A stretch of DNA of 64,000 bases from assembly GCA_020348445.1 (NCBI GenBank), contig CP070751.1, forward strand, positions 3,206,621 to 3,270,620, given 5' to 3'. The notes beneath the pieces were generated by a model that had not been told where the DNA came from, did no database searches, and saw nothing but the letters and a program-made list of their open reading frames with translations. Positions 12,062 through 27,039 of this stretch are shown here, one piece after another. The position numbers were made by a program, and so were the translations under genes. The DNA comes from Thermoplasmata archaeon (lineage in GTDB: Archaea > Thermoplasmatota > Thermoplasmata > GCA-020350865). How positions within the stretch are numbered: the first letter of the stretch is position 1; each line of letters begins with the position of its first letter.

Positions 12062-12108
12062 GTGTCCGAGATTAAGATTGAAGTCGAATACTAACATAAC
12101 TCGTACAC
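12062..12108 (+). repeat. Conserved-loop hairpin, copy 1
   Basis: GTGTCCGAG / 29-nt loop ATTAAGA...ATAA / CTCGTACAC (8 of 9 pairs). Confidence 0.6.
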
Positions 12109-12190
12109 AAAGCCATTTTGCGTGTGTCCGAGATTAATAGATATTATTGGACCTAAACATTCCCGAATTTCATTATAACGAAGTTGAGGG

Positions 12191-12289
12191 TGCGAGGGCC
12201 TCGTGTTCAAGTTATGCTTATACTATGTTCGTATCTTAAGCTTGAACACAAAACCCACGCATCTTTGATTGTTGAATAATAATATACGA
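12191..12289 (-). repeat. 99-bp tRNA-Leu 3'-trailer element (contains hairpin copy 2 at 12203-12249)
   Basis: 24-nt loop, inverted tRNA end (TGCGTGGG), GTGTTCAAG/29-nt loop/CTTGAACAC, then direct copy CCCTCGCA 99 bp from the tRNA end. Confidence 0.75.
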
Positions 12290-12373
12290 TGCGAGGGTTG
12301 GGATTTGAACCCAAGAACCTCTATGGACAGGACCCTCAATCCTGCGCCGTTGACCAAGCTTAGCTACCCTCGC
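12290..12373 (-). tRNA. tRNA-Leu(GAG)
   Basis: Acceptor GCGAGGG/CCCTCGC-A, anticodon arm CAGGA-TTGAGGG-TCCTG, long variable arm, TTGGG-TTCAAAT-CCCAA; no intron, CCA not encoded. Confidence 0.96.
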
Positions 12374-12620
12374 ATTAAGGCGGATTACAGCTGATAGGAT
12401 AGCTAAGCTCGCTCCCGAAGACAAACCTATGGGTTGTTAAGGTGAAGGGTTGGATTCTCCAACCCTGGGCCGCAGGATATGTTTTTATTTCCGAGGGCTA
12501 AGATGGGGCCCTTGGCCGCATCTGGCGTAGCTACCCTCGCATTTGAGGTAGTGATTAACCCTAATGGATAAGGTTGTTTAAGTCAATTGCTGTTGGTTTT
12601 TGTATTGATTTCTGGGTGGG

Positions 12621-12668
12621 TGCCCTTAGGCTTAAGATATCAGCTCATAACTACATAACCTAAGGGCA
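12621..12668 (+). repeat. Conserved-loop hairpin, copy 3
   Basis: TGCCCTTAGG / 28-nt loop CTTAAGA...ATAA / CCTAAGGGCA (10-bp perfect stem). Confidence 0.7.
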
Positions 12669-12822
12669 AAGTGGACTATGAATTAGTCATATAGGAAATG
12701 GAATAGGCCACGATGGAGGGGGTAGTGGAAGGAGGGGAGTCTAGGGAGGAGTGGGCACTAGATGTTGTAAAGAAATCCAATACCACAAACTACAAATCGA
12801 TTTATCCCTATACGGGAAATTC

Positions 12823-13500
12823 ATGCCCGAGCAAGAAGAAAAGGAGCTGAAATTCGAGTTCATAAAGGCCTTCAGCTTACCTGATGCATGGTACCAGTGC
12901 CTAACCAGAATCTTTGAAAGCGGCCATGAATACACAATAGACAGGGGAAGCTATGAAGGTCAAAAACGCTTGGAATTTGATTACATAACAGTGCAGATCA
13001 CCCATCCATTTGTCAAGCCCCTGGTACCTGACATCCCAGAAGGACTTGGCGTTCCGCCTCCGTCCTCAATTGAGTATGTGGAGAAGTACCTGGAGAAGAT
13101 CATTACCTCTGTAAAAAGCCCTGAGGAGGATTATACATACGGAGAGGACCTGGAGAGGCAGATTCCCCATGTCATAGAGATGTATAAAAGAGATGGCTTT
13201 GGAACAAACCAGGCCTACATGGCCGTGGGAAATGCAGATTCCCTGCTTTTAAATGACCCACAATGCCTTAGGGGAGTGGACACCAGAATCAGGTACGGCA
13301 AGCTCAATTTCATGCTGTATTTCAGGTCCTGGGACCTGTGGGCGGGCTTTCCTTCTAATCTGGCCGCTCTTCAAATGGTAAAGGAGTACATGGCAAAGGA
13401 GGTAGGGGTTGAGGATGGGGAAATCATAGCCTCAAGCAAGGGCTTGCACCTCTACGACTACGCCTGGGATATGGCAAAAAAACGTCTTAGGAAAATCTAA
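12823..13500 (+). CDS. thyA: Thymidylate synthase (short archaeal-type ThyA)
   Basis: DPQCLR catalytic Cys, YFRSWDL, FPSNL, GLHLY motifs; start revised to ATG 12823. Confidence 0.85.
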   Translation: MPEQEEKELKFEFIKAFSLPDAWYQCLTRIFESGHEYTIDRGSYEGQKRLEFDYITVQITHPFVKPLVPDIPEGLGVPPPSSIEYVEKYLEKIITSVKSPEEDYTYGEDLERQIPHVIEMYKRDGFGTNQAYMAVGNADSLLLNDPQCLRGVDTRIRYGKLNFMLYFRSWDLWAGFPSNLAALQMVKEYMAKEVGVEDGEIIASSKGLHLYDYAWDMAKKRLRKI

Positions 13501-13518
13501 AATCCATTGAAAAAAGAT

Positions 13519-13555
13519 ACCTACTTGAAAACCGGATGCTGATTTCCAAGTAGGT
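13519..13555 (+). terminator. Inverted repeat after thyA, possible terminator
   Basis: ACCTACTTG...CAAGTAGGT 9-bp perfect stem 18 nt after the stop. Confidence 0.4.
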
Positions 13556-13894
13556 GCGGATTTTGCCCACGCCGCTCCTAAGTTCCTTTTATAACAAATA
13601 TGTGGGGTTGGGTACTCAGAAGTGCGATATTTGAGATTAATACTGTATCTACTACTTAACGGTTTTAGAACAATTTTTGAACATTATTAGGGATACTATC
13701 CCAAATTGTACAAGATTGTTAATGCAAGAATTAAGATTTTTTTTATCTCGGCACTTTTACAATTTCTTTTAAAAAGCCAGGCATGACTTTTTGGCTTCTA
13801 CTTTCATTTTCCTCTGCCTTTCATCTTTAATAATAATCCCCCCTATAGTAACCTTTGCCTACATAGAAGAAAAACGGTAGGAGGTGTAAAACGC

Positions 13895-14011
13895 ATGTTT
13901 ATTGTGCCCAAAAATAGAGGTTATGTCCTTCTGACATCTTTCCAGGCCTTAAGACATCTGGCCATGGAAACTGTTGAGGAGTACTACAATGGCTGGAAGC
14001 TGATTGAATAA
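13895..14011 (+). CDS. Small 38-aa protein
   Basis: GGAGGTG RBS 8 nt before ATG; MFIVPKNRGYVLLTSFQALRHLAMETVEEYYNGWKLIE*. Confidence 0.45.
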   Translation: MFIVPKNRGYVLLTSFQALRHLAMETVEEYYNGWKLIE

Positions 14012-14096
14012 TGATTTTAATTGGAATCATCTAGACTTATTTTCCGTAATATAATCTCATTATATTAGCTGAAAACACGGTTAAAACAAATTCCCC

Positions 14097-14855
14097 TCAA
14101 CTTGCTTTAAGGTCCTCTTCAAAAAAGCTCTCGTCCACAATGAGCACATTCTTTGGTGCGTGTGCGCCATCGATGAATCCGAACCAGTAGACCACGATAC
14201 CCTGCCCAAATATTTCTGTATATGCCTTAAGCTGTCTTTTGGTATTTCTTCGAATTTCAGTCTCGTCACCGAAGCTGGCTTTTGACTCGATCCATTTTAT
14301 GCTCATTCCATTTGTCTGAAGGGGTTTGGAAAGGAGTGCATCAGGAGTTTTTGAATACTGGCCCTTTAACTCGTTTTCAGTTTTATATTTCAAGTTCTGT
14401 TTGTCCAGCCACTCACAAAGCCTCCGCTCCCCCATTTTACCTCTTTTATACTGCATCTCGTTTCCCTCGGGGGAGTACACTATGTCTTTTTCAACAATCT
14501 CTGATATCTCCTTTCGCATACGGTTATCCTTGATATTTTCGGGATTTTTAACTAAATCCCAGAATCGTTTTCTTGTGATGTTGTTTTCCAAAAGGATCAG
14601 ATATGCCGTTAAAATAGGGGGAAATTTTAATTCCCGGGAAAGAGAAAGAAATGATCTACCCTCATTCCATTTTTTAAGGAGGCTCTTGGCACGATGTTTC
14701 ACCTTATAAAAGCGTCTTGTAGCCAATCTTACGGTCTTCTGGGTGTAGAGCACCAAAACCAATTCCCGATCCAGGCCGGTGTTCTTTGCTACTCGATCAA
14801 TATCACCCAGGTTATTGAGTTCATCGTACAATCGTTTGTATTCACTTTTTTTCAT
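14097..14855 (-). CDS. C15orf41/CDIN1-family (TPD domain) PD-(D/E)xK nuclease
   Basis: KTPDALL...WIESKASFG...VVYWFGF motifs. Confidence 0.85.
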   Translation of the reverse strand: MKKSEYKRLYDELNNLGDIDRVAKNTGLDRELVLVLYTQKTVRLATRRFYKVKHRAKSLLKKWNEGRSFLSLSRELKFPPILTAYLILLENNITRKRFWDLVKNPENIKDNRMRKEISEIVEKDIVYSPEGNEMQYKRGKMGERRLCEWLDKQNLKYKTENELKGQYSKTPDALLSKPLQTNGMSIKWIESKASFGDETEIRRNTKRQLKAYTEIFGQGIVVYWFGFIDGAHAPKNVLIVDESFFEEDLKAS

Positions 14856-15034
14856 CGAAACACTTTCCAAATAAAAAGTGCATTTGCCTATTTTCTGGTC
14901 GTAGATTTAGATATGAGCTTAACGTATAAGAATATTTCTGGTTATTTATCTTTCTAATCCTTTCACTCACCCCCCTCCCGCAAATATATAAGCAGACACA
15001 GCATTGGGGTTGTGAGACAATTCCTATATAGAAA

Positions 15035-16372
15035 ATGGAGGAATCTGAAATGAAAGAAAATGAAGATATTGCACCCCATGTTGAGGATATCGCAAGGGTG
15101 CTAGGTGACAAAGTTGATAAAGAAGAAATAGACAGGGAGTTGAAGCAGTACTTGAAAGAATACAGGATACCTCTTTCCACTGCAAAGCAGATGCTTGTAA
15201 AGAAGTACGGTGGTGCACCATCGAATCTGGGTCTTGGTGTATTCAAAACCGTAGAGCAGCTTACACCCAACGAGCCCAGCGTGGATTTGCTTTGTAGATT
15301 AATCTCAGTGAACCACAAAGATGTGGAAGTGGGCGGAGAGAAGAAACCCATAGTATATGGTATCCTTGGAGATCAAACAGCCAGTGTTCCGTTTACAGCG
15401 TGGGAGGTAGGTGATTGGCAGTTTCAGAAGGGGGATGTGGTTCGTGTCCGCAACGCCTACACAAAGGAATGGAAGGGGCAGCCACAACTTAATTTCGGCG
15501 AGAGAACGAATATAGAACGGGAATCAAAGGATGCACTGCCGAACTTCGCACCCACACCGATCTCGGATCCAAAGAAATATGAGGTCAAGGACCTTAAGGG
15601 GGGAATGAGCAACATATCCCTTGTTGCTAGGGTGCTTTTTGTTGAAAAGCGTAATGTGAATGTTGGTGGAGAGGAAAAAGCCGTTTTCTCGGGAATAATG
15701 GCAGATAAGAGCGGTAAGGTACAGTTCTCGGCATGGCACGACTTCGGGCTTTCAGAAGGTGATGTGATCAAAGTGGAAGGCGGCTATGTGAAAAACTGGC
15801 GGGGAATTCCCCAGTTCGGCTTCGATGAGAGAGTAAAATTTGAGGTTTTGGATACAGATAAGATGCCCCCACTAGACGAACTTGCAGAAAGACACGTCTA
15901 TCAGATAGGAGAACTCATCGATAGGGGCGGAGCAATCGATGTAGTCGTTGAGGGTGTTATAATTGACATCAAGAGTGGAAGCGGATTGATATTCAGGTGC
16001 CCGGAGTGCAAGCGAGTGCTCCAAAAAGGCGTTTGCAGAATCCACGGTGAGGTTGAGGGTAAAGCCGATTTAAGGATCAAGGCTGTGCTGGATGATGGAA
16101 CCGGCGCGTTAACTGCTGTATTGGGTAGAGACATAACTGAAAAGCTCATTGGAAAAGATGTAAAGGAATGCAGGGAAATCGCCAAGAAGGCCATGGATCA
16201 GAGTGTGATTGCGGATGATCTCAAGGACCTTCTTATCGCAACGCCCATCAGAATCTCGGGTGATGCGTCCTTCGATGATTTTGGCATCATGTTGATAGCA
16301 AAAGATGCACAAATGATGAGTATCGACGTGCAAAAAGAAGCAAAAACCATGCTCGATGAGCTGGAGGTGTGA
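15035..16372 (+). CDS. rpa: Replication protein A (multiple OB folds plus Zn finger)
   Basis: Repeated OB motifs (GILGDQTASVPFTAW, GIMADKSGKVQFSAW, LDDGTG) and CPEC..CRIH. Confidence 0.9.
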   Translation: MEESEMKENEDIAPHVEDIARVLGDKVDKEEIDRELKQYLKEYRIPLSTAKQMLVKKYGGAPSNLGLGVFKTVEQLTPNEPSVDLLCRLISVNHKDVEVGGEKKPIVYGILGDQTASVPFTAWEVGDWQFQKGDVVRVRNAYTKEWKGQPQLNFGERTNIERESKDALPNFAPTPISDPKKYEVKDLKGGMSNISLVARVLFVEKRNVNVGGEEKAVFSGIMADKSGKVQFSAWHDFGLSEGDVIKVEGGYVKNWRGIPQFGFDERVKFEVLDTDKMPPLDELAERHVYQIGELIDRGGAIDVVVEGVIIDIKSGSGLIFRCPECKRVLQKGVCRIHGEVEGKADLRIKAVLDDGTGALTAVLGRDITEKLIGKDVKECREIAKKAMDQSVIADDLKDLLIATPIRISGDASFDDFGIMLIAKDAQMMSIDVQKEAKTMLDELEV

Positions 16373-17256
16373 TCATGATCGCAAGAGAGGTGGCATGGCG
16401 TATTTTTGCAGGCGAATACAATTCATCCATCCATGTGGAATCAGGGGTGGGGGAAAGGGCACCCAGCTACGTTGTCACGCCCTTGGGAGCAAAGGTAAAT
16501 CGGCTGTTTGTTGTGGGTGTGGTAACGGATGTCGAGAATATCGGTACTGATACTGAACCCATGTGGAGGGCAAGACTCGCTGATCCCACAGGAGTATTCT
16601 TTCTCTCCGCCGGTCAATACCAACCAGAGGCTGCACAGATACTGTCCAAACTCAAACCTCCTAAGTTCGTTGCAGTTATAGGGAAAAGCCGTACCTATTC
16701 TCCAGAGGAGGGAGTGATATACGTTTCCATAAGGCCTGAAACCATCAAAGAGGTCAATTCAGAACTTAGGGATTTTTGGGTGTTGAACTCGTGCAGGAGC
16801 CTCAAGAAGAGGCTGGAAATCGTAAGCGAAGCAATGAAGATGGAAAAGCCAAGCATCGAGAACATAATCTCCCTTGGTGCGGACAGAAACCTTGCCGAGG
16901 GCATTATGTCAGCAATCGAGCACTACGATTACATCGACATCGCTAGGTTCAGCAGCATGCTCCAAGACGGTCTAAAACACCTTCTACCCGAGCATCAAGA
17001 AATCGACGGGGGAGAAGGAGTAGAAGCAGAAGAGCGGCAAAACAAGGAGTCCGAAGACAACATCGAGAACGAGGAGAAATTCCTTGAGATCATAGAAGAA
17101 TTGGACAAAGATGTTAAGGGCGCCGCCTGGGAGGAAATCATGGAAATGGCCCAAAAAAAGGGATTGAGTAGGATACAGATCGAGGAAACCACAAATTCCC
17201 TATTGGACAAGGGCCTGATATACGAACCTGTGCTTGGTAGGATTAAAAAGATATAG
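16369..17256 (+). CDS. RPA-associated/RPA2-like OB-fold protein with C-terminal winged helix
   Basis: REVAWRIFAGE, RLFVVGV, ADPTG; C-terminal LLDKGLIYEP; overlaps rpa. Confidence 0.85.
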   Translation: MIMIAREVAWRIFAGEYNSSIHVESGVGERAPSYVVTPLGAKVNRLFVVGVVTDVENIGTDTEPMWRARLADPTGVFFLSAGQYQPEAAQILSKLKPPKFVAVIGKSRTYSPEEGVIYVSIRPETIKEVNSELRDFWVLNSCRSLKKRLEIVSEAMKMEKPSIENIISLGADRNLAEGIMSAIEHYDYIDIARFSSMLQDGLKHLLPEHQEIDGGEGVEAEERQNKESEDNIENEEKFLEIIEELDKDVKGAAWEEIMEMAQKKGLSRIQIEETTNSLLDKGLIYEPVLGRIKKI

Positions 17257-17270
17257 TTAATAGAATAACA

Positions 17271-18194
17271 TTATGTCCGTGCAGCCCACTCCTTTAGAGG
17301 GAAGGTTTCACCGCAGCTTTTGCATTCTACACCATCAGTGAGTTCTTTTTCGCATGCATCGCATTTTTCCTTTCCGTATAAGGCCATGCTTCCACAGTGA
17401 GTACAAGGCAGAACATAGGCCTCTGAAGTGACACACCAACCAAAGTTCTGGATGTTATTGCATGATGGGCATGATTTCTTCTCTACTTTCAATTTGGTGC
17501 CGCATTCAGGGCACATGTTTCTTACCTTTGCCACTTTTTTCTTCAAGACCTTTGACTTATCGAAAATGAATTTCGTTGCAGGAGATTCTGGCAAATCTTC
17601 AACGGTCCAGTTCAGACTTCTGTCCGGAAGCCAAAGAATATAGACCAAAAGGAAGGCAATTATTGGTTCAAGTACCATATAAAATTGAATTTCTCCCCCA
17701 CCCGAATCCACCCAAAGAGACCAGCTGATAATTGATAAAACTGAAAAGGCCATGAAAAACATCACGCTGATACTCCAGAACCCAAGGGGTAGATATTCCT
17801 CTTTTTGAGCAACTGTATCTCGCGTCTTTTTTACGCTCTGGACGATGTGAAACGCCATATAAAACGCAGCTATTATGAAGAAGATACCAATCAAGATGGG
17901 AAGGGATATTCCAAAGACGTTTAGGTAGTCATACCAAAAAAAAAGGAGTATAACACCGAAAGCCGAGATACCATAACAGGCATATAATAGAAAACTGTAG
18001 GGCCAGGTATTTGGAAATGCGAAATATATGCAAAGAAGGGCACCGCCACCCAATGCAGCCCACAAAACAGCAGAAATAAGACCGGGCTGTAAACCAAAAT
18101 AAAGGGATAAAAGCACGCATACAAAGGTTGCTATAACCAGTTGATCTTCGGTTTTATCCAGGGAAAGAAATCCAGCTCCCTCAAACTTTACCAT
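17271..18194 (-). CDS. Multi-pass membrane protein with C-terminal multi-zinc-ribbon
   Basis: About 6 hydrophobic segments, then CPEC, CPSC, CTHC, CDAC, CKSC; probable start MVKFEG. Confidence 0.75.
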   Translation of the reverse strand: MVKFEGAGFLSLDKTEDQLVIATFVCVLLSLYFGLQPGLISAVLWAALGGGALLCIYFAFPNTWPYSFLLYACYGISAFGVILLFFWYDYLNVFGISLPILIGIFFIIAAFYMAFHIVQSVKKTRDTVAQKEEYLPLGFWSISVMFFMAFSVLSIISWSLWVDSGGGEIQFYMVLEPIIAFLLVYILWLPDRSLNWTVEDLPESPATKFIFDKSKVLKKKVAKVRNMCPECGTKLKVEKKSCPSCNNIQNFGWCVTSEAYVLPCTHCGSMALYGKEKCDACEKELTDGVECKSCGETFPLKEWAART

Positions 18195-18435
18195 TAATAT
18201 CGGCGAGTATACCGATAAGATTGTATTAATGAATTTCGGTGAAGGCACTTTTTACAAAAAAACTGGTGCCACTCAGATCGCCCATCACTCATCATCTTTC
18301 AGATCGGCGTTCTTCTTCATCGTGGCATAATACGTATGACTTAGAAGGAGATAGATTTTACTATGATGTAAAATGCATATAATCTCTGATTTTAAAACAT
18401 TGGGAGCAACCGAAAATATGGAGATGTTAAGAATG

Positions 18436-19323
18436 CTATTTGAGCTTCCCAGTCAAGCCACGCAGCTCCTCAAACTCGTCCTCCAGGATGTCCAAGGCAA
18501 AGGTCAAAGCTTCCTTCGCCGTCAAAGACCCGTCTGTCTCAAATTGGAAAATGAACTTCTTATCATCCCCTGATACCTTGATGGCACCAAGGGAGCAAAC
18601 CTCCTCGCATTTTTTGCACATGTTGCAATTTTCAATATCGGTGATCACTATTTTCTTGTCTTTTATGGCGAGAACGTTTTTTGGACAGTTGGAAATGCAA
18701 GATGCACCCATATCGCACTTATCATGGGAGATATTTATCTCAGGGTAGTACTGATAACCCACTGCCTGGGCTGTCTGCCATTTTGCATGTAGACTACCGG
18801 TGCCCAATTCTGCTGTTGCGTAAAGAAGCAAGGCCTGGCTTTTATTCAACTTCACAATCGGTATTTTTTTGTCGATTTGGAAGTGCTCTGCATATTTCTT
18901 TTCAGAAAGTCCTTCCACCTTTTGTACAACCAGTTGCAGTTCATCTGCGTAGACAGTGACACTTTTCTCGTCATCCTCTTCAGAAGGTCCCCTTTTATTG
19001 AGGGAGTACATGATGGTACAGTTTGGACAACCCTCTCCTTTGCACACACAGTCCTCTCTGAAAACGAAAACACCAAGATCCGTGGGAATTGGAATCATCC
19101 CCAGTCTATGGGAAATAATCTCGTCAAATAAGGGTGTCACACTCTCATACTCTTTGCCATGTTCATCTCTGATGGGCCCAAGATGAAATTCAACAGTAGA
19201 AATGGCCATCTTTGGAACATCGGCGATCAATGTCCTTCTCAATGCATTGACAACCGGAGGAGATATGTCAGAGATGATGAATTTGGCACTCGTGTCCGTT
19301 AGTTCTAAAATATCAAACTTCAT
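18436..19323 (-). CDS. rpoD: DNA-directed RNA polymerase subunit D (Rpo3) with ferredoxin-like domain
   Basis: NALRRTLIADVP, SHRLGMIP, HAKW, CxxC ferredoxin motifs. Confidence 0.96.
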   Translation of the reverse strand: MKFDILELTDTSAKFIISDISPPVVNALRRTLIADVPKMAISTVEFHLGPIRDEHGKEYESVTPLFDEIISHRLGMIPIPTDLGVFVFREDCVCKGEGCPNCTIMYSLNKRGPSEEDDEKSVTVYADELQLVVQKVEGLSEKKYAEHFQIDKKIPIVKLNKSQALLLYATAELGTGSLHAKWQTAQAVGYQYYPEINISHDKCDMGASCISNCPKNVLAIKDKKIVITDIENCNMCKKCEEVCSLGAIKVSGDDKKFIFQFETDGSLTAKEALTFALDILEDEFEELRGLTGKLK

Positions 19324-19405
19324 TGTATTTCCCCTTTATTATCACAAATCATTGAACGTCCTATCAATGATAAATATATTACTGTTTTTGCTCACACTCG
19401 GATCA

Positions 19406-19789: not shown

Positions 19790-20568
19790 TAGGCTTCACC
19801 CCCGGCCTTGGATTTTTCGCTATCGGGTTTGTCCTTTGGCTCCTTTCCCTTTCCCCCCTTCTTCTTGGGTTCCTCACCCTTCTTATCTTTCCCCTCGGAT
19901 TCCTTTTCTTTGCCCTTTACTTCCTCGGTTTTCTTCTTCTGGTCTTTTTCCCCAATTGCGCCCTTCTTTTGGGTTGGCTCGATCTCATCGACTTTCTCGG
20001 TTTCCTTCTGCATGGTAAATTCCCTTGATACTCTTTCTATATGCTCTGCTGTGGGTCTTGCAGGGTGTAGCTCGCTTGCAAGTGGTGAATATGGATTGTA
20101 GGCAATACTTGGCTCTTCGTTCTTTTTTACCAAATAACCAGGTACCGTAACCATACGCTCATTTACTGTGGCATGGCCGTGAACAATAAGCTGTCTCGCT
20201 TGTTTTGGCGTATATGCTAGGCCCTTTATATACACCAAGGTCTGCAATCTACGTTCCAGCATCCTCTCCACATCCAAGGCCAAAACATCATCCAAAGTTG
20301 CATCCTCCGGTAGGACTCCGAGATTGGCGAGTTTTTTCAAGAGGCCTTTCCTCTCCTTTTGTGCCTGCATATCACCCAATCGAAGTCTGGCGAGGAGGGT
20401 TCTTGCCTGTCTTCTGTAATTTCTAAGTTCGGACTGTGCCTTCCAGAGCTCGCGTTTGTTTTTAAGACCGTATTTCTTTAAAAGTTCGTTCTCCTCCTTG
20501 ATCCTGGTCCCTTGCCAGGGATGCGATGGTGTGTCATATTTTCTTCTTGAGAATTTTGGATCACCCAT
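19789..20568 (-). CDS. rps4: 30S ribosomal protein S4 with charged C-terminal extension
   Basis: [30 protein letters not shown]. Confidence 0.98.
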
Positions 20569-20613
20569 TTATTCACTTTTCCTTTAAGACCTACTTTGTC
20601 CCGATTCTCTTTT

Positions 20614-21138
20614 TTATTTGGCCTTCTGCGCTTTTTTCACCACTCCAACGGTCAGTCCTGTCCTACCATGGGCTTTGGTCCTCTGCCCCCTCACCTTCAG
20701 GCCTTTCTCATGCCGAATTCCCCGGTAACATCTGATTTTCTTCAGTATGTTGATGTCCTCTTGGCGTCGCATATCCATCTCTGAGCCCAGAAGATGTATA
20801 TCCTCCCCAGTCCAGGTATCCCTTTGCTTATTTAAAAGCCATCCCGGTGTGTGTTCCGATAGCTCCAAAACATATTCTTCTAATTTTTCTATATCTTGAT
20901 CTGATAAGTTGCCTATCTTCTCGTCCCTGGGTAATTTAGTTAGCTTGAGTACCACCTCTGCCACCCTATCCCCAACCCCTTTTACGGCAGTTAAGGCATG
21001 AACCACAGTCTTGTTACCATCCAAATCAGTGTTTGCTATTCTGACAATATATTTGAAGTCGTCTGGTTGATCCTCATCTTTCTTAGACTCCTTGACTATT
21101 TCTTTTGGAGCTGCGATTTTTTCATTTTCGTCTGCCAA
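20614..21138 (-). CDS. rps13: 30S ribosomal protein S13
   Basis: KYIVRIANTDLDG, YRGIRHEKGLKVRGQRTK; TTG start after GGAGG. Confidence 0.97.
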   Translation of the reverse strand: MADENEKIAAPKEIVKESKKDEDQPDDFKYIVRIANTDLDGNKTVVHALTAVKGVGDRVAEVVLKLTKLPRDEKIGNLSDQDIEKLEEYVLELSEHTPGWLLNKQRDTWTGEDIHLLGSEMDMRRQEDINILKKIRCYRGIRHEKGLKVRGQRTKAHGRTGLTVGVVKKAQKAK

Positions 21139-21465
21139 ACCTTATCCTCCAGGTATATAGAATTATTTGGAAGGCAAGATGCCCTTAAGTGATTTTTATT
21201 ATTTAAGGTTATTGGGATTGGATGTATCAGTTTCTTGAATATCATTGAATAAAACTCGTAATTACACCCATCACCTCCCCCAAGAAAGTGATTATCCAGT
21301 TATAACATATCTACTTTACGGTATTTGTTTGTCATGTGATCAATGAAAATCCCTTGAAAGAATATTCATCTATATAGATTCTTTATTAATATATAGTGAA
21401 TATATTCTATATAAGCTAATTAATTATACTGGGTACCCTTTTCTATCATTAGGTTTTGAGTCTTC

Positions 21466-22785
21466 ATGAACAATAAAGAAGATGATAATAATCCTGATTC
21501 AAAGGACGAGTGTATTGAGGATATAGTACTGAAATCTGAAGAACAGACTTCTCAACCAAAGAAAAAAGTCCGGGTCTTAAAGGACGATTACATCCCAAGA
21601 AAGCCAAAATCTAAGTTAAAAGCGGGCTGGCTGACACTGAACAGGAGAATCTCCCCATACCTTAACCACAGATACACAAGGGCGTTTATCCTCATTCTCT
21701 CCGTCTATTTCTTCATCGTGGGAATAAAAACCATGAGCGGCGGCTTCAAGGACATGGGTAAGGGATTCTCGGAAGGGTTGATAGAAAACGCTTCAAATCC
21801 TTTGGTGGGATTGTTCATTGGTATCTTTGCCACATCTGCAATTCAAAGTTCCTCTGCAACTACCTCCATGGTGGTGGGAATGGTGGCTGCAGAGCCTAGA
21901 TTTCTTCCCATGGCCATTCCAATCATCATAGGCGCCAACATTGGTACTTCTGTTACGAACATGATAGTCTCCTTTGGTCATATCACGAGAGGTGCCGAGT
22001 TTGAAAGAGCATTCTCAGGAGCTGTCGTACACGATTTCTTCAATGTGATTGCTGCAAGCATTCTCTTCCCTGTTGAAGTTATAACCCAGTATTTATGGGG
22101 GGGTAAAGGTCTTCTCCAAAGAGCCTCAATGTATCTTGCTGAGAACTTCGTAGGAACTGCCGGAGTAGGGAAATTCACACTTATCAATGATATCGTAAAT
22201 CCCATTGTAAATCCCATCAGAGATTTTTCCAAGGGTGCTGGTATACAGTGGCTTTCAGTACTTGTTGGAATCATAATCCTCTTTTTAGCCTTGAAGTTCA
22301 TAACAAGCTCCATGAGAATATTGATTGAGGGCAGATTACAGATCATCATCAGCAAGTACCTTTTTAAAACCACTTTAACCAGTTTCGGCTTCGGGATTCT
22401 ACTAACGGCATTGGTTCAGAGCAGCTCTATAACGACCTCCCTCGTGGTACCCCTGGTTGGTGGCGGAGTCTTGTCTGTTGAGCAGATTTTCCCTTACACC
22501 CTGGGAGCAAATGTGGGAACCACTGTTACTGCTCTTTTAGCTGCTTTCGTGGAATGGGGCAGCGCAAGCCAGGCCGGTAGTGCTGTTGCGGCATTGTCCA
22601 TTGCCTTTGCACATCTTTTGTTCAACGTGATCGCAATATGTCTTATTTATCCATTTAAAAAGCTGCCCATAGGCATGGCCAAAAGATTGGGGGGTTATGT
22701 GGTTAATAACAAAAAAATGGCGGTAATCTATATAATCGTTGCATTCTATATAATACCGGGATTGGTAATACTACTTCTGAGGTGA
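21466..22785 (+). CDS. Na/Pi cotransporter (NptA/NaPi-II family)
   Basis: Duplicated QSSS and GANIGT/GANVGT motifs. Confidence 0.92.
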   Translation: MNNKEDDNNPDSKDECIEDIVLKSEEQTSQPKKKVRVLKDDYIPRKPKSKLKAGWLTLNRRISPYLNHRYTRAFILILSVYFFIVGIKTMSGGFKDMGKGFSEGLIENASNPLVGLFIGIFATSAIQSSSATTSMVVGMVAAEPRFLPMAIPIIIGANIGTSVTNMIVSFGHITRGAEFERAFSGAVVHDFFNVIAASILFPVEVITQYLWGGKGLLQRASMYLAENFVGTAGVGKFTLINDIVNPIVNPIRDFSKGAGIQWLSVLVGIIILFLALKFITSSMRILIEGRLQIIISKYLFKTTLTSFGFGILLTALVQSSSITTSLVVPLVGGGVLSVEQIFPYTLGANVGTTVTALLAAFVEWGSASQAGSAVAALSIAFAHLLFNVIAICLIYPFKKLPIGMAKRLGGYVVNNKKMAVIYIIVAFYIIPGLVILLLR

Positions 22786-22792
22786 GAAAAGC

Positions 22793-23476
22793 ATGTCATT
22801 TAAAAGAATATACGATGCGTTGACAAAGGCCCCCCTCCTGGAAAAGGCGTATAATGATGCATGGAAGATGCACGCACTCGTAAAGGAGATGTTCGAGGAG
22901 TCCTCAAAATGTTTAATTGGGTGTGACATAAGTGTGGCAAAAAAACTCTCCTTGGAAGACAAGCGTATCAACAAGGCCGAGAAGAAAATCAGAAGGGAGG
23001 TTATGGAATACCTGGCAGTGACAACGGCTCCCAACCTCAGTGCCTCATTGATTTTAATAAGCATAGTTATTGATTATGAAAGAATTGGAGATCTCTGCAA
23101 GAACATAGCCCAGGTCTGCATAGAATATCCTGCAGATTTTGATGACGAAGAATATGTTAAGGATATTAACGAAATTAAAAATAACCTCTCGAAAATGTTT
23201 GATTTAACTTTAGTAGCAATAGAACAATCTGATACCGAGAAGGCCAAGGAAGCCATTGGAATACATGACAATATTAAGGAGATTCACAACAGTATAATTA
23301 AAAGATTGAACGAAGACGAGAAGATTTCCACAACCAATGCCATAAGTTATGCATTGTTAACAGGGTACTTCAGAAGGATCAATGCCCACCTAGCTAATAT
23401 TTGTACGGGTGTGCTTTACCCCTTCCCTGCTTTGGGCTTTGGATATGAGGTGGGTGGAGATTTGGATGGGCCGTAA
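22793..23476 (+). CDS. phoU: PhoU-domain phosphate uptake regulator
   Basis: DKRIN, DYERIGD, RRINAH helical repeats; follows the Na/Pi transporter. Confidence 0.85.
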   Translation: MSFKRIYDALTKAPLLEKAYNDAWKMHALVKEMFEESSKCLIGCDISVAKKLSLEDKRINKAEKKIRREVMEYLAVTTAPNLSASLILISIVIDYERIGDLCKNIAQVCIEYPADFDDEEYVKDINEIKNNLSKMFDLTLVAIEQSDTEKAKEAIGIHDNIKEIHNSIIKRLNEDEKISTTNAISYALLTGYFRRINAHLANICTGVLYPFPALGFGYEVGGDLDGP

Positions 23477-23494
23477 GCAGTGGTAGTGCCTTTT

Positions 23495-23851
23495 TCATCC
23501 TGATAAATTAAAATCATTGCCAAGATCCAGCTTTCCCTGACAAAGGACTTTTCCATCCAAAACCAGTGCAGGAAGTGTGTCGATCCCCAGCCTCCTCATT
23601 CTCATTCTCGCCTTGAATTTTTTCCATTTTACAATTGCCCTTATTCTGCTGTCACTTTGGGAGGGAATGACCATTTCATAACTTTCTTTGTTTTTCCACA
23701 CCAAGTGTTTTGCATACCTCAACATCTTCCTGCTTTGCTCAGTTTGTTTTGGTATGGGTTTTAAACAGCAGCTTCCTCCAGATGTTTTTGGAATAGTGAA
23801 AATAACCTCAGGAAAGAATTCCAATTTATGTTTGGATTTTGACATTTTCAA
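23495..23851 (-). CDS. Small thioredoxin-like protein with vicinal CC motif
   Basis: GGSCC and C-terminal TLPALVLDGKV; downstream of the DsbD/TlpA genes. Confidence 0.55.
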   Translation of the reverse strand: MKMSKSKHKLEFFPEVIFTIPKTSGGSCCLKPIPKQTEQSRKMLRYAKHLVWKNKESYEMVIPSQSDSRIRAIVKWKKFKARMRMRRLGIDTLPALVLDGKVLCQGKLDLGNDFNLSG

Positions 23852-23961
23852 TCACTGATTTTGTTGTAATGTTAATTAATTAATTCTTCATATATATTGA
23901 TTTATTGTATTACAATTCATGTAAATTATCAGAATTTATTTTACAAATGTAATTCATTCCA

Positions 23962-25773
23962 TTATAAACTCGCGGTAGAAACATAAATCCATACAAGATA
24001 TATTCCAACTACGATCAAAACAGCCCCACTTATTTTCTTAATGACTTCTGTGTACTGGGATAATTTCTGGGCTGCACCGGCTCCGAAATGGGCTATGGCA
24101 ATGGTAATACTTATCATTAATACGGCTGCCACTAGATTATAGAGAATTAGAACAGACAATCCAAATATTAATCCAGCATTCAATGCAGCCACTAAAACTG
24201 CAATAAAAATGGGAGCAGTGCACCCCGCAGCAGCGGCCCCATATCCTAAACCGTATAAGAACAATCCTCCATAGAATCCCGATTCTCCTCCAGTGGTAGT
24301 GGGATCGCTAGATTCACTGACCTCTCCATCCTTGGATTTTTTCTGAAACTTGCTTCGCAGCTTTGCCCAAAAGGCCTGAATCGGTCGTATGATCTTCCAG
24401 TATTGAAAGGGTGTGAGTAGAAGTCCTCCCAGTACTATCAGGATGATTCCCACAATAAGTCCAAAAACAGCCACTCCCTCCAGTATGGAAGTTCCAGCAA
24501 GGATAACTACTATGCCTAAAAGTAAACTCACGATTATTATACCAGCAGCCGAGATGGTCCCAGCCATTGCAGCTCTTCGCAGTGGTATCTTTCCCCCTTC
24601 CTCGGCTCCTTTTTTGAGATAGTATGCTAGATATCCCGGAAGCATGGGAAATGCACAGGGAGAGAAGAAGAATGCAAATCCAGCTAAAATTGCCAGGGAA
24701 ACATAACTTGCCTCCTGAATGGCAATTGCCTCAGCTTCACCTGATATTGCATCATCAAGTTCTTTTTTCAGGGTGCTTACATCTTCGACTTCGCCTTCGA
24801 ATGTGGCATAACCATCACCATTGATGATTATGATCTTTGGAATGAGTTCAGCACGGTATTTGAGAATCAGATCATCAGTATCCCGTGCAATGGCCCAATC
24901 GATATTGTGGGAATCCCTGTAATCCTGGAGCATCCCGTCTGTATCATCCACCAAGATATCCACACTTATAAAAACAACTTCATCTTTATAATCCGGATAT
25001 ATCTCCTTAAGGTTCTTCTCAACGATTTTACATCCTTTGCAGGGAATGGACATCATGTCCAATATAACGACCTTTCCCCTAAAATCCGTGAGATTGAAAG
25101 TGTTGCCGTCTATGTCAGTCAATGTGAATCCAGGTGCCTCAGTAACCTCACTCGGGCTGAGGAAAAGTACACCCATTACAATAAAAATCAAGATAAAGAT
25201 AACTAAAATTATAGCTTGCATCTTCTTATTCATTGGTATAGTTTTATCCTTCCTCTTGACGTGTTTTACAACCAAGAACACAAGGATAACTACAAGAATG
25301 ACTATAAGAACCTGCATGGCCAAATTACTTTCAGTTGGACAGGGTGGAGCTTCACCGCCCTCAAGGCTCGTGTTTATATCTATGTAATGATAATCTTCCC
25401 CTCCTAAAGGTGAATATTCTTTACTGCCATCATCATATGTTACTGTGATGTTTATGCCAAGTAATGTTACCCCTTCAAGATCCCTTGTTATAATAGTAGA
25501 ATAAGTGTTGTTCTCCCCCAGGGTTAAATTGTGTAAATCAGGATAACATCCCTCTTCGGGTTCGATTTGACAGTACAGCATATTGACCTTTGTAATATTT
25601 GATGTGTCATTTACCTGTACATACACGGTAATCTCATCATATGAAAATGGTTTTTCTGGATAATAGGTAACGCTCCTAATATTTGATTCGGCACTCACAG
25701 ATGGAAGGAATGACAGGGAAATCATTAAAATTATGAAGACCCAAAACGGCACTAACTTTTTTACACAACTCAC
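23962..25773 (-). CDS. Fusion: secreted Ig-like domain, TlpA redoxin and CcdA/DsbD membrane domain
   Basis: APGFTLTDIDG, PCKGC, FFSPCAFPMLPGY, AAGCTAPIF. Confidence 0.85.
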   Translation of the reverse strand: MSCVKKLVPFWVFIILMISLSFLPSVSAESNIRSVTYYPEKPFSYDEITVYVQVNDTSNITKVNMLYCQIEPEEGCYPDLHNLTLGENNTYSTIITRDLEGVTLLGINITVTYDDGSKEYSPLGGEDYHYIDINTSLEGGEAPPCPTESNLAMQVLIVILVVILVFLVVKHVKRKDKTIPMNKKMQAIILVIFILIFIVMGVLFLSPSEVTEAPGFTLTDIDGNTFNLTDFRGKVVILDMMSIPCKGCKIVEKNLKEIYPDYKDEVVFISVDILVDDTDGMLQDYRDSHNIDWAIARDTDDLILKYRAELIPKIIIINGDGYATFEGEVEDVSTLKKELDDAISGEAEAIAIQEASYVSLAILAGFAFFFSPCAFPMLPGYLAYYLKKGAEEGGKIPLRRAAMAGTISAAGIIIVSLLLGIVVILAGTSILEGVAVFGLIVGIILIVLGGLLLTPFQYWKIIRPIQAFWAKLRSKFQKKSKDGEVSESSDPTTTGGESGFYGGLFLYGLGYGAAAAGCTAPIFIAVLVAALNAGLIFGLSVLILYNLVAAVLMISITIAIAHFGAGAAQKLSQYTEVIKKISGAVLIVVGIYLVWIYVSTASL

Positions 25774-25782
25774 TTTCGCACC

Positions 25783-26340
25783 TCAAATAAGTCTCTCTAC
25801 CTCTTTCGATAGGGTCTGGAAAGACGTTTCGCCCTCATGATAATGCCTGATTATACCCTCTCTATCTATGATTACTATGGTTGGAGTATATCTTACGTTG
25901 TATTTATTTTCTACATCGTCCGTGTCTCTTGCAAAAGTCCAATTATCACCGTATTTTTCGCGAAAAGTGCTCAAATCTTCGTTTGAATCGCTGTTATCAA
26001 TGGATATTGTCATAATAACCAATTCTTCAGAAGGGTATCTGTTATATACACCTTTTAGATGCTCCATTTCGCTGATACAGGGAGGACATGTGGTGGTCAT
26101 GATATCCAATATTATGACCTTACCGAAATTGTCTGAAAGTTTAATCTCTTCTCCATCAATACTCTTCAGATTGAAATTAGGAGCTTTTTCTCCCACAAGA
26201 TCTATAAAAAAAGGGCGTATCAATATATAAGCCAAAACGATGATTAGAATGATCACGACTATTATTATGATATTCCCTTTTAAAAACTGCTTTACCTTGT
26301 TGGCTTTTAAATTCTCTTTATCAGGCTCCTTTTCATCCAA
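25783..26340 (-). CDS. Membrane-anchored TlpA-family redoxin
   Basis: APNFNLKSIDG, TTCPPC, YTPTIVIID. Confidence 0.9.
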   Translation of the reverse strand: MDEKEPDKENLKANKVKQFLKGNIIIIVVIILIIVLAYILIRPFFIDLVGEKAPNFNLKSIDGEEIKLSDNFGKVIILDIMTTTCPPCISEMEHLKGVYNRYPSEELVIMTISIDNSDSNEDLSTFREKYGDNWTFARDTDDVENKYNVRYTPTIVIIDREGIIRHYHEGETSFQTLSKEVERLI

Positions 26341-26529
26341 GAATGAGCACCTAAGGGATAAAAACGCTGTTTATTGGATATAAGTTTTACCTAGGTAAAA
26401 AAATCCCAAATGATTATCAGCCTAGATAACAACAAGGTATAATTTATCTACTCAGAGTTATATAGGAAAAACATTATAGCCAATGCTCTCAGGGATTTGG
26501 GGCCCAAGAGCGTAAAAGAAGATGAGGAC

Positions 26530-26685
26530 ATGACTTCACTAATACCTCATGGAAAGGAAGTTTCTGTGGTGCACCTCAATTCAGACTGGGGTTACTTGGC
26601 TTATATTGAGAAATGTTTAGATAAACACGGAGAGACTACCTACAAGGTTGTTAGAGTACCCTTGGAAGATGGATTTAAAAAATAA
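26530..26685 (+). CDS. Possible small hypothetical protein (51 aa)
   Basis: GAGG RBS before ATG 26530; no recognisable motif. Confidence 0.3.
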   Translation: MTSLIPHGKEVSVVHLNSDWGYLAYIEKCLDKHGETTYKVVRVPLEDGFKK

Positions 26686-26865
26686 CAGAATGTGAATCCA
26701 TAATAATAACCGTTTTTACGATTTTTTCTTTTAATCTGGAGTTTAAATATCACTATCATTTCGACAGTAATGGGCAATTTGGGGCCTGATATCTTTATTA
26801 TGGGAATTTCCTGTCCTAAACAACCCGCAATCATTTTATTGTACAATTTCCTTAAACCTCAATGT

Positions 26866-26943
26866 GGCCCAGTGGGGTAGCTTGGTCGATCCTATGGCGT
26901 TCGGGACGCTGTGACTCCGATTCAAATTCGGACTGGGCCACCA
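26866..26943 (+). tRNA. tRNA-Pro(CGG)
   Basis: Acceptor GGCCCAG/CTGGGCC-A-CCA, anticodon arm TGGCG-TTCGGGA-CGCTG, T arm TCCGA-TTCAAAT-TCGGA. Confidence 0.93.
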
Positions 26944-27039
26944 TTCTAATTTTTATACAATTATATTCATGGTGGCCCATTCGTGTTTTGGCTTAAGACC
27001 CAAGCAAATGATAGTATAACCAAAACACGGACTGGGCCA
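26941..27039 (+). repeat. 99-bp tRNA-Pro 3'-trailer element (contains hairpin copy 4 at 26982-27029)
   Basis: 24-nt loop, inverted tRNA end (ATGGTGGCCCA), CGTGTTTTGG/28-nt loop/CCAAAACACG, direct copy CGGACTGGGCCA 99 bp from the tRNA end. Confidence 0.75.

What the first reader, a model, noticed from the sequence alone, without database searches (positions are those of the whole stretch)
12191..27039. Both tRNAs are followed by a 99-bp element of the same design, tailored to each tRNA's acceptor end
Pro (26941-27039,+): CCAT | 24-nt AT-rich loop | ATGG TGGCCCA | TT | stem 10 | loop 28 | stem 10 | GAC | TGGGCCA. Leu (12289-12191,-): TC | 24-nt loop | GA TGCGTGGG | TTTT | stem 9 | loop 29 | stem 9 | GAGG | CCCTCGCA. 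Each sums to 99 nt, and the tRNA 3' end recurs exactly 99 bp later. The inverted arm can pair either with the real tRNA 3' strand or with the downstream copy, forming a mimic acceptor stem around the conserved hairpin. Hypotheses: (a) a tRNA-mimic small RNA released by RNase P/Z; (b) a folding switch controlling tRNA maturation; (c) a non-autonomous micro-element integrated at tRNA 3' ends, the duplication being its att site. Matching lengths with different sequences argue against chance.
Basis: partly seen in the sequence, partly recalled or inferred. Interest (0 to 1): 0.88.

Follow-up and report, generated by a model that had tools for sequence, protein, structure and literature searches.

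The report
Hairpin repeat modules behind tRNA genes
The two 99-base elements are real copies of a roughly 60-member, apparently undescribed family of non-coding hairpin modules that sit behind most native tRNA genes in one genus of sediment archaea; each copy is built from its own tRNA's last bases, and in this genome both window copies have had the hairpin loop flipped.

Summary
Observation confirmed. Both tRNAs (Pro-CGG, Leu-GAG) are followed by the same sequence of parts: tRNA end, 24-nt AT-rich spacer, inverted copy of the tRNA end, hairpin, direct copy of the tRNA end, 99 bp apart.

The match in length is not specific to this pair. A covariance model of the hairpin finds about 60 copies in this genome, and the repeat period across the family is 95-101 bp (mode 97-99). 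It finds 23-45 copies in each of the four other genomes of the genus. It finds none in 56 other Thermoplasmata genomes, none in IMG/VR, and an exact pattern occurs in no other species genome.

The scan had already found this family elsewhere in this genome.

New here:
- Both window units lie at syntenic sites in relatives.
- Their arms track changes in the tRNA acceptor stem and in the non-functional trailer.
- Their loops are reverse-complemented relative to every orthologue examined. Only 3 of about 85 tRNA-linked copies are flipped.
- Hairpin stems covary almost purely Watson-Crick (2 G·U in 378 cells). This points to a DNA-level palindrome rather than a selected RNA fold.
- About a third of canonical spacers carry a TATA-like box at the offset this genome's leaderless genes use. 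An own-promoter hairpin RNA is therefore not excluded.

Best reading: a lineage-specific DNA foldback repeat anchored to tRNA ends. How it spreads and what it does remain unproven.

The parts
26866..26943 (+). tRNA-Pro(CGG) gene. The mature 3' end (discriminator A) is at 26940. The CCA here is a chance trailer, because relatives have TCA or TTA at that place.
26931..26944 (+). Arm X of the Pro unit: the tRNA 3' acceptor strand plus 4 trailer bases.
   Evidence: inverted repeat I3 (14 nt, 93%, 24 nt between the arms)
26945..26968 (+). 24-nt AT-rich spacer: a T5 run followed by the TATA-like TTTATAC. That motif starts 30 nt before the first base of the hairpin.
26969..26979 (+). Inverted copy of the tRNA-Pro end, rc(X).
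26982..27029 (+). Family hairpin with a 10-bp stem. The 28-nt loop (26992-27019) is reverse-complemented relative to the orthologues and to the family norm.
   Evidence: (I6)
27028..27039 (+). Direct copy X' of the tRNA-Pro 3' end, 99 bp after the original.
   Evidence: direct repeat D1
12288..12374 (-). tRNA-Leu(GAG) gene (Rfam places it at 12290-12373).
12264..12287 (-). 24-nt AT-rich spacer of the Leu unit. The TATA-like box has decayed here; it is intact in the G001 orthologue.
12254..12263 (-). Inverted copy of the tRNA-Leu end including the trailer bases TC. It has one mismatch.
12203..12249 (-). Family hairpin with a 9-bp stem. The 29-nt loop (12212-12240) is reverse-complemented relative to the orthologues.
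12191..12198 (-). Direct copy X' of the tRNA-Leu 3' end, 99 bp after the original.
   Evidence: direct repeat D9
12047..12109 (-). Second, partly decayed unit behind tRNA-Leu. It has a family hairpin at 12061-12109 with the loop in the normal orientation, and a third copy of the tRNA end at 12047-12054.
   Evidence: (D8)
12352..12414 (-). Mirror-image 5' cap. A 19-nt inverted copy of the tRNA-Leu 5' part (12396-12414) lies 25 nt upstream of the sequence it copies.
   Evidence: (I1)
12614..12711 (-). Free-standing member of the family, not linked to a tRNA. Order of parts: GTGGCCTAT, 23 nt, ATAGTCCAC, TTT, hairpin. It belongs to a dispersed subfamily of about 14 copies and is absent from the orthologous site in G001.

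Best explanation
The two 99-bp units are local members of a genus-restricted family of compound DNA palindromes attached to the 3' ends of native tRNA genes.

Each module has five parts in order:
1. The last 9-14 bp of the tRNA gene, including 1-5 trailer bases.
2. A 23-24-bp AT-rich spacer, with a T-run followed by a TATA-like box.
3. An inverted copy of that tRNA end.
4. A family hairpin: a 9-10-bp stem that covaries, and a 28-29-nt loop with invariant ends G|TTAT ... CTTAA|N|C.
5. A direct copy of the tRNA end.

Shown:
- The family exists and is confined to this genus among the genomes searched.
- The two window units are inherited at syntenic sites.
- Their arms change together with the tRNA and its trailer.
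- Both loops were inverted inside the hairpin in this genome's lineage.

Inferred:
- The module works and is maintained at the DNA level. The three arms are kept matched by intrastrand template switching (quasi-palindrome correction), with the selected tRNA gene as the master copy.
- The spacer plus hairpin core spread from tRNA to tRNA, and into a few non-tRNA sites, by an unidentified hairpin-dependent single-strand DNA process. Arrays then grew by unequal exchange between the direct copies.
- The loop flips are the 'flip-flop' recombination between stem arms known from plastid hairpins.

Any cellular role, such as tRNA terminator or outward promoter, is secondary and unproven.
For: Family and distribution:
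- About 60 hairpins in G000, of which about 44 lie within 400 nt downstream of a tRNA.
- 58/32/27/23/45 copies in the five genomes of the genus, and 0 in 56 other genomes of the class.
- An exact pattern search of 185,579 species genomes hits only four MAGs of this genus.

Geometry:
- Spacer of 23-24 nt between maximal arms.
- Period of 95-101 bp.

Vertical inheritance:
- Pro units lie at the syntenic site in G001, G002, G003 and a JGI contig.
- Leu(GAG) units are present in G001 and G002.

Concerted arms:
- The acceptor pair 6:67 is A:U in G000 and G003, and U:A in G001, G002 and L153. Both rc(X) and X' follow this change.
- The trailer reads CCAT, TCA or TTAT in different genomes and is mirrored by ATGG, TGA or ATAA in rc(X).

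DNA-type palindrome:
- The inner stem is 95.8% paired, with 106 double changes over 8 of 9 pairs and only 2 G·U cells in 378.
- The cap hairpin arms have 478 Watson-Crick pairs, 0 G·T, 4 A·C and 14 other mismatches.

Ongoing turnover:
- The free-standing copy and the 5' module next to tRNA-Leu are absent from G001.
- Units are missing at Leu(GAG) in G004 and at Leu(CAG) in G002.
- Tandem arrays reach 6 hairpins.

Loop flip:
- G000 loops match orthologous loops better after reverse-complementing: Pro 21-23 of 28 versus 13-15; Leu alignment score 8-11 versus -2 to 1.
- Contig L153 has the same stem as G000 but a forward loop.
- The linkers on both sides are unchanged.
- Such hairpin-bounded inversions are documented in plastomes (PMC6824564).
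Against: - No enzyme was identified. The genome's IS200-type elements have unrelated end hairpins, and no Y1 gene lies beside a module.
- No clean filled-versus-empty pair was found for a canonical 3' unit, so the insertion boundaries are unknown.
- Four observations look more like purifying selection for a function than like a drifting selfish repeat: near-saturation of native tRNAs, invariant loop ends across five species, fixed loop orientation (about 81 forward against 3 flipped), and a positioned TATA-like box.
- Some arm mismatches persist across species (the G-to-T change in rc(X) shared by G002 and L153), so copy-correction is not frequent.
- Re-tailoring of 9-14-nt arms for each new tRNA is postulated, not observed.
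Confidence: 0.5

Rival explanations
1. Each unit is a small RNA gene with its own promoter. The spacer supplies the BRE/TATA. Transcription starts at the first base of the hairpin. The product is the family hairpin carrying a 3' tail identical to the neighbouring tRNA's 3' end, which could act as a tag, decoy or guide directed at that tRNA's processing or at its gene.
For: - TTTAWAW occurs in 18 of 55 canonical spacers, and 16 of these start at -32 to -28 from the hairpin base, against 1.9 expected from shuffled spacers.
- The same motif peaks at -30 before the ATG of leaderless genes in this genome.
- The position before the hairpin is usually T and the first hairpin base is usually a purine, as at archaeal start sites.
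- Loop ends are invariant and loop orientation is fixed.
- The free-standing subfamily lies about 100-170 nt upstream of co-oriented genes or tRNAs in 6 of 7 cases read.
Against: - Only a third of spacers keep a strict TATA box, and the BRE match is partial (one search compared).
- No consistent T-run terminator follows X'.
- The stems lack the G·U wobble expected of a selected RNA helix.
- Strand-asymmetry tests conflict.
- The mirror-image 5' caps carry the same box pointing away from the tRNA.
- The positioned box may simply be inherited with the spacer.
- There are no RNA data.
Confidence: 0.2
2. The unit acts in cis as a pre-tRNA 3' trailer. The inverted arm pairs either with the tRNA 3' strand or with the downstream copy. 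This would give a maturation switch, or a tRNA-mimic minihelix released by RNase P/Z.
For: - The predicted RNA folds are very stable, and both alternative pairings are possible.
- The arms match genomic trailer bases, not the mature CCA end.
- T-runs behind tRNAs that carry a module (T3-T5) are shorter than behind module-free tRNAs (T6-T9). Some read-through is therefore conceivable.
Against: - A T-run sits between the tRNA and the inverted arm in most units.
- The mimic stem pairs the discriminator and trailer, unlike RNase P/Z or CCA-enzyme substrates (this point rests on general knowledge).
- There is almost no wobble in any of the three helices.
- Free-standing copies lack any tRNA.
- Loop inversion is tolerated.
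Confidence: 0.1
3. The direct repeats are att-site scars of integrase-mediated mobile elements that used the tRNA 3' ends and were later lost.
For: - Longer tRNA 3'-end repeats typical of integrated elements do occur at other tRNAs of the genus and class (L035, L041, L015, L019).
Against: - Only 99 bp lie between the repeats, and there is no gene there.
- The same conserved hairpin and spacer lie behind about 30 different tRNAs.
- The inverted arm and the fixed 24-nt geometry are not produced by att recombination.
Confidence: 0.04

Closest known systems
REP/BIME/REPIN extragenic palindromes of bacteria (mobilised by RAYT Y1 transposases) and IS200/IS605-derived PATEs
   Same: - Short, gene-less, multi-copy imperfect palindromes whose stems covary while their motifs stay fixed.
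- Likely recognised as folded single strands.
- In IS200/IS605 a guide lying 5' of the hairpin foot base-pairs with the flanking target. The inverted arm here occupies that same position.
   Different: - The arms here are 9-14 nt long and are copied from whichever tRNA lies alongside, whereas IS200/IS605 uses a fixed 4-5-nt target.
- A direct copy of the target follows the hairpin.
- No cognate transposase was found, and the genome's IS200 ends are unrelated.
- The host is an archaeon.
tRNA-gene-targeting integrative elements (archaeal SSV-type and pNOB8-type, bacterial P4-like)
   Same: - Sit at tRNA 3' ends.
- Duplicate the tRNA end, so the gene stays intact.
   Different: - The unit is 99 bp with no integrase and no cargo.
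- It has an additional inverted copy of the tRNA end.
- The same core lies behind nearly every native tRNA.
Inverted triplications (tandem inversion duplications) formed by replication template switching, and quasi-palindrome correction
   Same: - The direct, inverted, direct order of the tRNA end.
- Junctions at small palindromes.
- Perfect Watson-Crick arms without wobble.
   Different: - Those are sporadic, locus-specific events.
- Here a homologous spacer and hairpin recur at dozens of loci and in five species, which requires copying between loci.
Hairpin-bounded small inversions ('flip-flop') in plastid genomes (PMC6824564; Kelchner & Wendel 1996, as cited in that paper)
   Same: - Only the loop between two stem arms is reverse-complemented, and the flanks are untouched.
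- The state differs between close relatives.
   Different: - This explains only the flipped loops of the two window units.
- It does not explain the existence of the modules.
Tandem repeats downstream of E. coli tyrT that each contain the tRNA-Tyr 3' end (recalled from my own knowledge, not checked here)
   Same: - Tandem units behind a tRNA gene, each ending in a copy of the tRNA 3' end.
   Different: - It is a single locus, with no inverted arm and no family hairpin shared between different tRNAs.

Membership tests
REP/BIME with RAYT | Many short extragenic palindromes of one family | tested here: met
   About 60 copies in G000 and 23-45 in each sister genome.
REP/BIME with RAYT | A cognate single-copy Y1 (RAYT) gene flanked by the palindromes | tested here: not met
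   Y1 genes exist. However, the 661-bp IS200 copies have different end hairpins, the conserved divergent Y1 pair at 4.2145-4.2154 Mb has no family hairpin nearby, and one weaker Y1 match (1866358-1866678) was not inspected.
IS200/IS605-derived PATE | Ends identical to those of an autonomous IS in the same genome | tested here: not met
   The IS200 left and right end hairpins (preceded by AATGAATAC) are unrelated to the family hairpin.
IS200/IS605-derived PATE | Insertion 3' of a fixed tetra- or pentanucleotide, without duplication | tested here: not met
   The flanking arms are tRNA-specific and 9-14 nt long, and a direct copy follows the hairpin.
MITE | Terminal inverted repeats and a short target-site duplication of fixed length | tested here: inconclusive
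   Inverted and direct repeats are present, but they are copies of the neighbouring tRNA end and vary in length from 8 to more than 14 nt. No autonomous partner is known.
Integrase att-site duplication at a tRNA gene | Direct repeat of the tRNA 3' part flanking an element that encodes, or once encoded, an integrase | tested here: not met
   The direct repeat is present, but only 99 bp of non-coding hairpin lie between the copies.
Integron attC site | R''/R' core boxes (RYYYAAC / GTTRRRY) at the ends of an imperfect palindrome beside gene cassettes | tested here: not met
   The outer arms are tRNA ends, not R boxes. The hairpin start GTTAT(A/G) does not fit GTTRRRY. The units sit behind tRNAs, not behind cassettes. 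An integron integrase was not searched for.
tRNA-like minihelix substrate of RNase P / RNase Z / CCA-adding enzyme | Acceptor stem of about 7 bp with an unpaired discriminator and 3' tail, stacked on a T-arm-like helix | tested here: not met
   In the predicted fold the discriminator and trailer are paired and an internal loop interrupts the stack. There is no tRNA hit on the units.
Any Rfam RNA family | Score at or above the family's gathering threshold | tested here: not met
   Only generic long-hairpin miRNA models match, at 14-23 bits against thresholds of 62-180.
Hairpin-bounded small inversion (flip-flop) | Loop reverse-complemented between orthologues, with stem and flanks unchanged | tested here: met
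   Contig L153 has the identical 10-bp stem with the loop in the other orientation.

The most novel reading that the evidence does not exclude
The inverted arm is a working guide. A hairpin-specific single-strand DNA recombinase would use the 9-11-nt arm beside the hairpin foot to find, by base pairing, the 3' end of a tRNA gene. This would extend the 4-nt guide logic of IS200/IS605. It would make the module a naturally re-targetable micro-transposon whose guide is rewritten by template switching after each jump.

Alternatively, the units are self-promoted hairpin RNAs that each carry the 3'-end sequence of one tRNA as an address tag.
Probability: 0.15. Interest if true: 0.85.

Novelty: new variant of a known kind. 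Interest (0 to 1): 0.62.

Why it matters
Small foldback repeats such as REPs and MITEs are common. One whose arms are rewritten to match each host tRNA gene, and which occupies nearly every native tRNA of a genus, has not to my knowledge been described. My literature searches found nothing comparable.

It offers a natural system for three questions:
- How short palindromes are copied and corrected in archaeal DNA.
- How tRNA gene ends attract and tolerate repeats.
- Whether sequence-programmable single-strand DNA insertion exists in archaea.

There are practical consequences too. These modules break short-read assemblies at tRNA loci. They also create hairpins that mimic tRNAs and could mislead annotation.

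Tried and rejected
- **RNA evidence.** The look-up of sequencing runs listed no RNA holder, so expression could not be examined. Read laying gave contigs only.
- **Rfam.** The gathering run over the whole window returned nothing, not even the tRNAs. Permissive runs found only tRNA-Leu plus sub-threshold miRNA-like hairpin matches.
- **IS200/IS605 link.** Y1 genes are present, but their element ends are unrelated. The divergent Y1 pair has no module nearby.
- **Strand-of-action tests were inconclusive.**
  - Inner-stem single mismatches favour the strand opposite to the usual loop reading: A·C 22 against G·T 9 in G000, and 7 against 2 in relatives.
  - Whole-unit folding energies are equal on both strands.
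  - The hairpin alone is more stable on the forward strand.
- **Mini-tRNA-gene origin.** I tested whether the spacer is a copy of the tRNA's own promoter. The Pro locus shows an 11/13 plus 15/20 collinear match (D2 and D3), but other tRNAs show no such similarity.
- **Large inversion.** I considered whether one inversion between the two window hairpins caused both flips. I rejected this because the stems differ, each X' matches its own tRNA, and the gene order equals that of G001.
- **Mis-specified scans.** Two pattern scans used too long a loop gap and are void. The corrected scans are. The IMG/VR matches to the corrected pattern are chance, because only the 3 forced stem pairs match.
- **Literature.** Searches for an equivalent element found nothing.
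Full report
**1. The observation**

ARAGORN finds two tRNA genes in the window: Leu(GAG) at 12288-12374 on the minus strand and Pro(CGG) at 26866-26943 on the plus strand.

- **Pro.** The tRNA end plus four trailer bases (26931-26944) is followed by a 24-nt AT-rich spacer. Next comes an 11-nt inverted copy, then TT, then a perfect 10-bp stem around a 28-nt loop. The unit closes with a 12-nt direct copy of the tRNA end, exactly 99 bp after the original.
- **Leu.** The order of parts is the same: 24-nt spacer, 10-nt inverted copy with one mismatch, TTTT, 9-bp stem around a 29-nt loop, GAGG, 8-nt direct copy. The period is again 99 bp.

Both units fold far better than shuffled sequence (z -4.3 to -6.5). 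A unitig of the probable source run passes through the Pro unit without a difference or a fold-back joint. An unrelated JGI metagenome contig holds an orthologous unit. The feature is real DNA.

**2. It is a family, not a pair**

The same layout follows many other tRNAs of this genome. I aligned 42 hairpins (A1) and built a covariance model from them (R1).

- R1 finds 62 copies at E below 0.01 in this 5.16-Mb genome. About 44 of them lie within 400 nt downstream of a tRNA, singly or in arrays of up to six.
- The invariant features are the closing G-C pair and the loop ends: TTAT after the G, and CTTAA plus one variable base before the C.
- With arms drawn maximally, the spacer is 23-24 nt. The distance from the tRNA end to its direct copy is 95-101 bp, most often 97-99.

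So 99 = 99 is the family norm, not a coincidence between two independent designs.

Distribution:

| Search | Result |
|---|---|
| R1 on the five genomes of the genus | 58, 32, 27, 23 and 45 copies |
| R1 on 56 genomes of 33 other genera of the class | none |
| Exact stem-loop pattern in 185,579 species genomes | only four MAGs of this genus |
| Same pattern in IMG/VR | chance matches only |

One of the four MAGs is titled 'Methanomassiliicoccales archaeon isolate bin396' (CP070739.1), a 3.2-Mb single-contig chromosome that I take to be G001. The others are titled 'Thermoplasmata archaeon'.

Earlier notes of this scan had already described the family at other places in this genome. I used them as leads and re-tested what I rely on.

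**3. The two window units through evolution**

The Pro unit lies at the same place, before the same downstream gene, in G001. It also follows tRNA-Pro(CGG) in G002, G003 and JGI contig L153. It is absent in the one other genome of the order and in about 25 further class members examined at this tRNA. The Leu(GAG) unit is present in G001 and G002. G004 has a different module there. The two tRNAs are 13.6-14.6 kb apart and point away from each other in both G000 and G001, so there has been no large rearrangement.

Three findings follow.

- **The arms evolve together with the tRNA.**
  - Acceptor pair 6:67 is A:U in G000 and G003, and U:A in G001, G002 and L153.
  - Both the inverted arm and the direct copy carry the matching base in every case.
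  - The non-functional trailer (CCAT, TCA, TTAT) is mirrored in the inverted arm (ATGG, TGA, ATAA).
- **The inner stems change by paired substitutions.** G000 has GTGTTTTGG/CCAAAACAC where G001 has GCGCTTCGG/CCGAAGCAC.
- **The loops of both G000 units are reverse-complemented.**
  - They differ in this way from all orthologues examined: four for Pro, two for Leu.
  - Identity rises from 13-15 to 21-23 of 28 for Pro when the G000 loop is reverse-complemented. For Leu the gain in identity is small (17-18 to 19-20 of 29), but the alignment score rises from -2 to 1 up to 8 to 11.
  - L153 has exactly the G000 stem but a forward loop. The T-rich linker stays on the tRNA side.
  - The inversion is therefore confined to the hairpin and is recent.

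Among tRNA-linked copies, only 3 of 44 in G000 are flipped. These are the two in this window plus the Ala(GGC) copy at 4.7896 Mb. None of about 40 copies in relatives is flipped. Loop inversion bounded by stem arms is the flip-flop mutation documented for plastid hairpins (PMC6824564).

**4. DNA or RNA?**

Evidence for a DNA-level palindrome:
- Across 42 hairpins, 95.8% of stem cells are paired.
- Eight of nine pairs show double changes (106 cells).
- Only 2 of 378 cells are G·U.
- In the cap hairpin (tRNA end paired with the inverted arm) I counted 478 Watson-Crick pairs, 0 G·T, 4 A·C and 14 other mismatches. The outer stem gave 447, 5, 9 and 21 respectively.

Selected RNA helices normally tolerate wobble. 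Strict Watson-Crick complementarity with sporadic true mismatches is what copy-correction of a DNA palindrome gives.

Tests for which strand folds disagree.

Evidence against read-through from the tRNA: a T-run, the archaeal terminator signal, directly follows most tRNAs. However, it is shorter (T3-T5) than behind module-free tRNAs (T6-T9).

Evidence for an own promoter:
- Crude leaderless genes of this genome have TTTAWAW starting 30 nt before the ATG, preceded by an A-rich BRE.
- In 16 of 55 canonical units the same motif starts 28-32 nt before the first hairpin base, against 1.9 expected from shuffled spacers.
- The first hairpin base is usually a purine preceded by T.

This fits an outward promoter firing into the hairpin. 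Against it:
- Two thirds of spacers lack a strict box.
- No terminator follows the direct copy.
- The box may simply be inherited with the spacer.

No RNA run holds this organism, so the question stays open.

**5. Turnover and wider architecture**

The Leu locus shows that the process is still active.
- G000 has a 177-nt insertion relative to G001. It holds a free-standing family member (12614-12711). This belongs to a dispersed subfamily of about 14 copies that lie in unrelated intergenic regions.
- G000 also has a roughly 151-nt module between the conserved upstream region and the tRNA. That module contains a decayed tRNA-Leu duplicate, and a 19-nt inverted copy of the tRNA 5' part placed 25 nt upstream of the gene. 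It is homologous to the module upstream of tRNA-Leu(CAA).
- Several Ala and Gln tRNAs likewise have an inverted copy of their 5' end 24-28 nt upstream. The 24-nt cap therefore occurs in mirror image at both gene ends.
- Units are missing at some tRNAs in some genomes.

No mobilising enzyme was found.
- IS200-type elements are present, but their end hairpins are unrelated.

**6. Interpretation**

The best-supported reading has five parts:
- This is a lineage-specific DNA foldback repeat anchored to tRNA gene ends.
- It is inherited vertically over the life of the genus.
- It shows occasional gain, loss and tandem growth.
- Its arms are kept matched to the selected tRNA gene by template switching.
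- Its loops are occasionally flipped by intra-hairpin recombination.

How the conserved spacer and hairpin reach a new tRNA, and acquire that tRNA's arms, is inferred and not shown.

One lead comes from position. The inverted arm lies immediately 5' of the hairpin foot. The tRNA end lies upstream, and a copy follows the hairpin. This parallels the guide, left cleavage site and right cleavage site of IS200/IS605 ends. That parallel motivates the more novel reading of a guide-programmed single-strand element.

Several features keep a functional role alive, whether as an own-promoter hairpin RNA or as a terminator/promoter module:
- near-saturation of native tRNAs;
- invariant loop ends;
- fixed loop orientation;
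- the positioned TATA-like box.

The RNA-mimic and switch ideas have no positive support. They could not be tested with RNA data.

**7. Verdict**

The family appears undescribed: Rfam holds nothing comparable and my literature searches found nothing. The scan had already found it on other DNA of this genome.

What this window adds:
- two syntenic units with clear concerted evolution of their arms;
- two of the only three loop flips seen;
- a dated flip, with the stem shared with L153;
- filled-versus-empty evidence for neighbouring family members;
- the wobble and promoter-offset measurements.

Noticed in passing
window 12602-12778 (minus strand): A free-standing family member with a C-rich leader. 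Order of parts: GTGGCCTAT, 23 nt, ATAGTCCAC, TTT, hairpin, TCCCACCC. It belongs to a dispersed subfamily of about 14 copies that is not linked to tRNAs. It is absent from the orthologous site in G001. In 6 of 7 copies read, a gene or tRNA starts 100-170 nt downstream in the same orientation.
   Followed up: partly
window 12374-12545 (minus strand): A module upstream of tRNA-Leu(GAG) holding a decayed partial duplicate of tRNA-Leu: a 5' stub at 12525-12543 and a T-arm-like hairpin at 12446-12466. It also holds a 19-nt inverted copy of the tRNA 5' part. The module is absent in G001 and G002, present in G004, and homologous to the region upstream of tRNA-Leu(CAA) at G000 1.3613 Mb.
   Followed up: partly
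G000 4,640,570-4,643,566 (outside the window): A dense cluster of about 22 tRNA genes within 3 kb. Their sequences are atypical, several have introns, and none carries a hairpin module. It looks like a virus- or element-borne tRNA array.
   Followed up: no
G000 1,678,782; 1,864,505; 1,942,922; 2,412,747 (outside the window): Bacterial-looking tRNA genes with encoded CCA (Glu-CTC, Leu-TAA, Arg-CCT and an initiator-like Met), without modules, inside this single 5.16-Mb contig. Sister genomes are 2.3-3.7 Mb. This suggests foreign segments or a chimeric assembly (completeness 81.7%, contamination 3.8%).
   Followed up: no
loci L032, L035, L036, L041 (G003, G004, G001): A second recurrent motif directly behind some Leu tRNAs or behind their units: TTTTATAATTTGAG(R)GG(R)ATTATAATTG. 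Beyond it lie longer copies of the tRNA 3' end, of the kind that bound integrated elements.
   Followed up: no
window 26830-26866: The TATA-like box of tRNA-Pro (TTTATTG) starts 31 nt before the mature 5' end. Transcription would therefore begin at or 1 nt before the tRNA, giving a leaderless tRNA. The 5 bases before the gene are also nearly complementary to the trailer.
   Followed up: no
window, whole: The Rfam gathering-threshold run over the full window reported no match at all, not even the two tRNAs. A short-range run found tRNA-Leu at 47 bits but still did not list tRNA-Pro.
   Followed up: no
G000 2,860,309-2,860,969 and 3,338,969-3,339,629: Two identical 661-bp IS200-type elements (Y1 transposase only) with AATGAATAC-prefixed end hairpins. 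One of them abuts a masked (N) stretch.
   Followed up: partly
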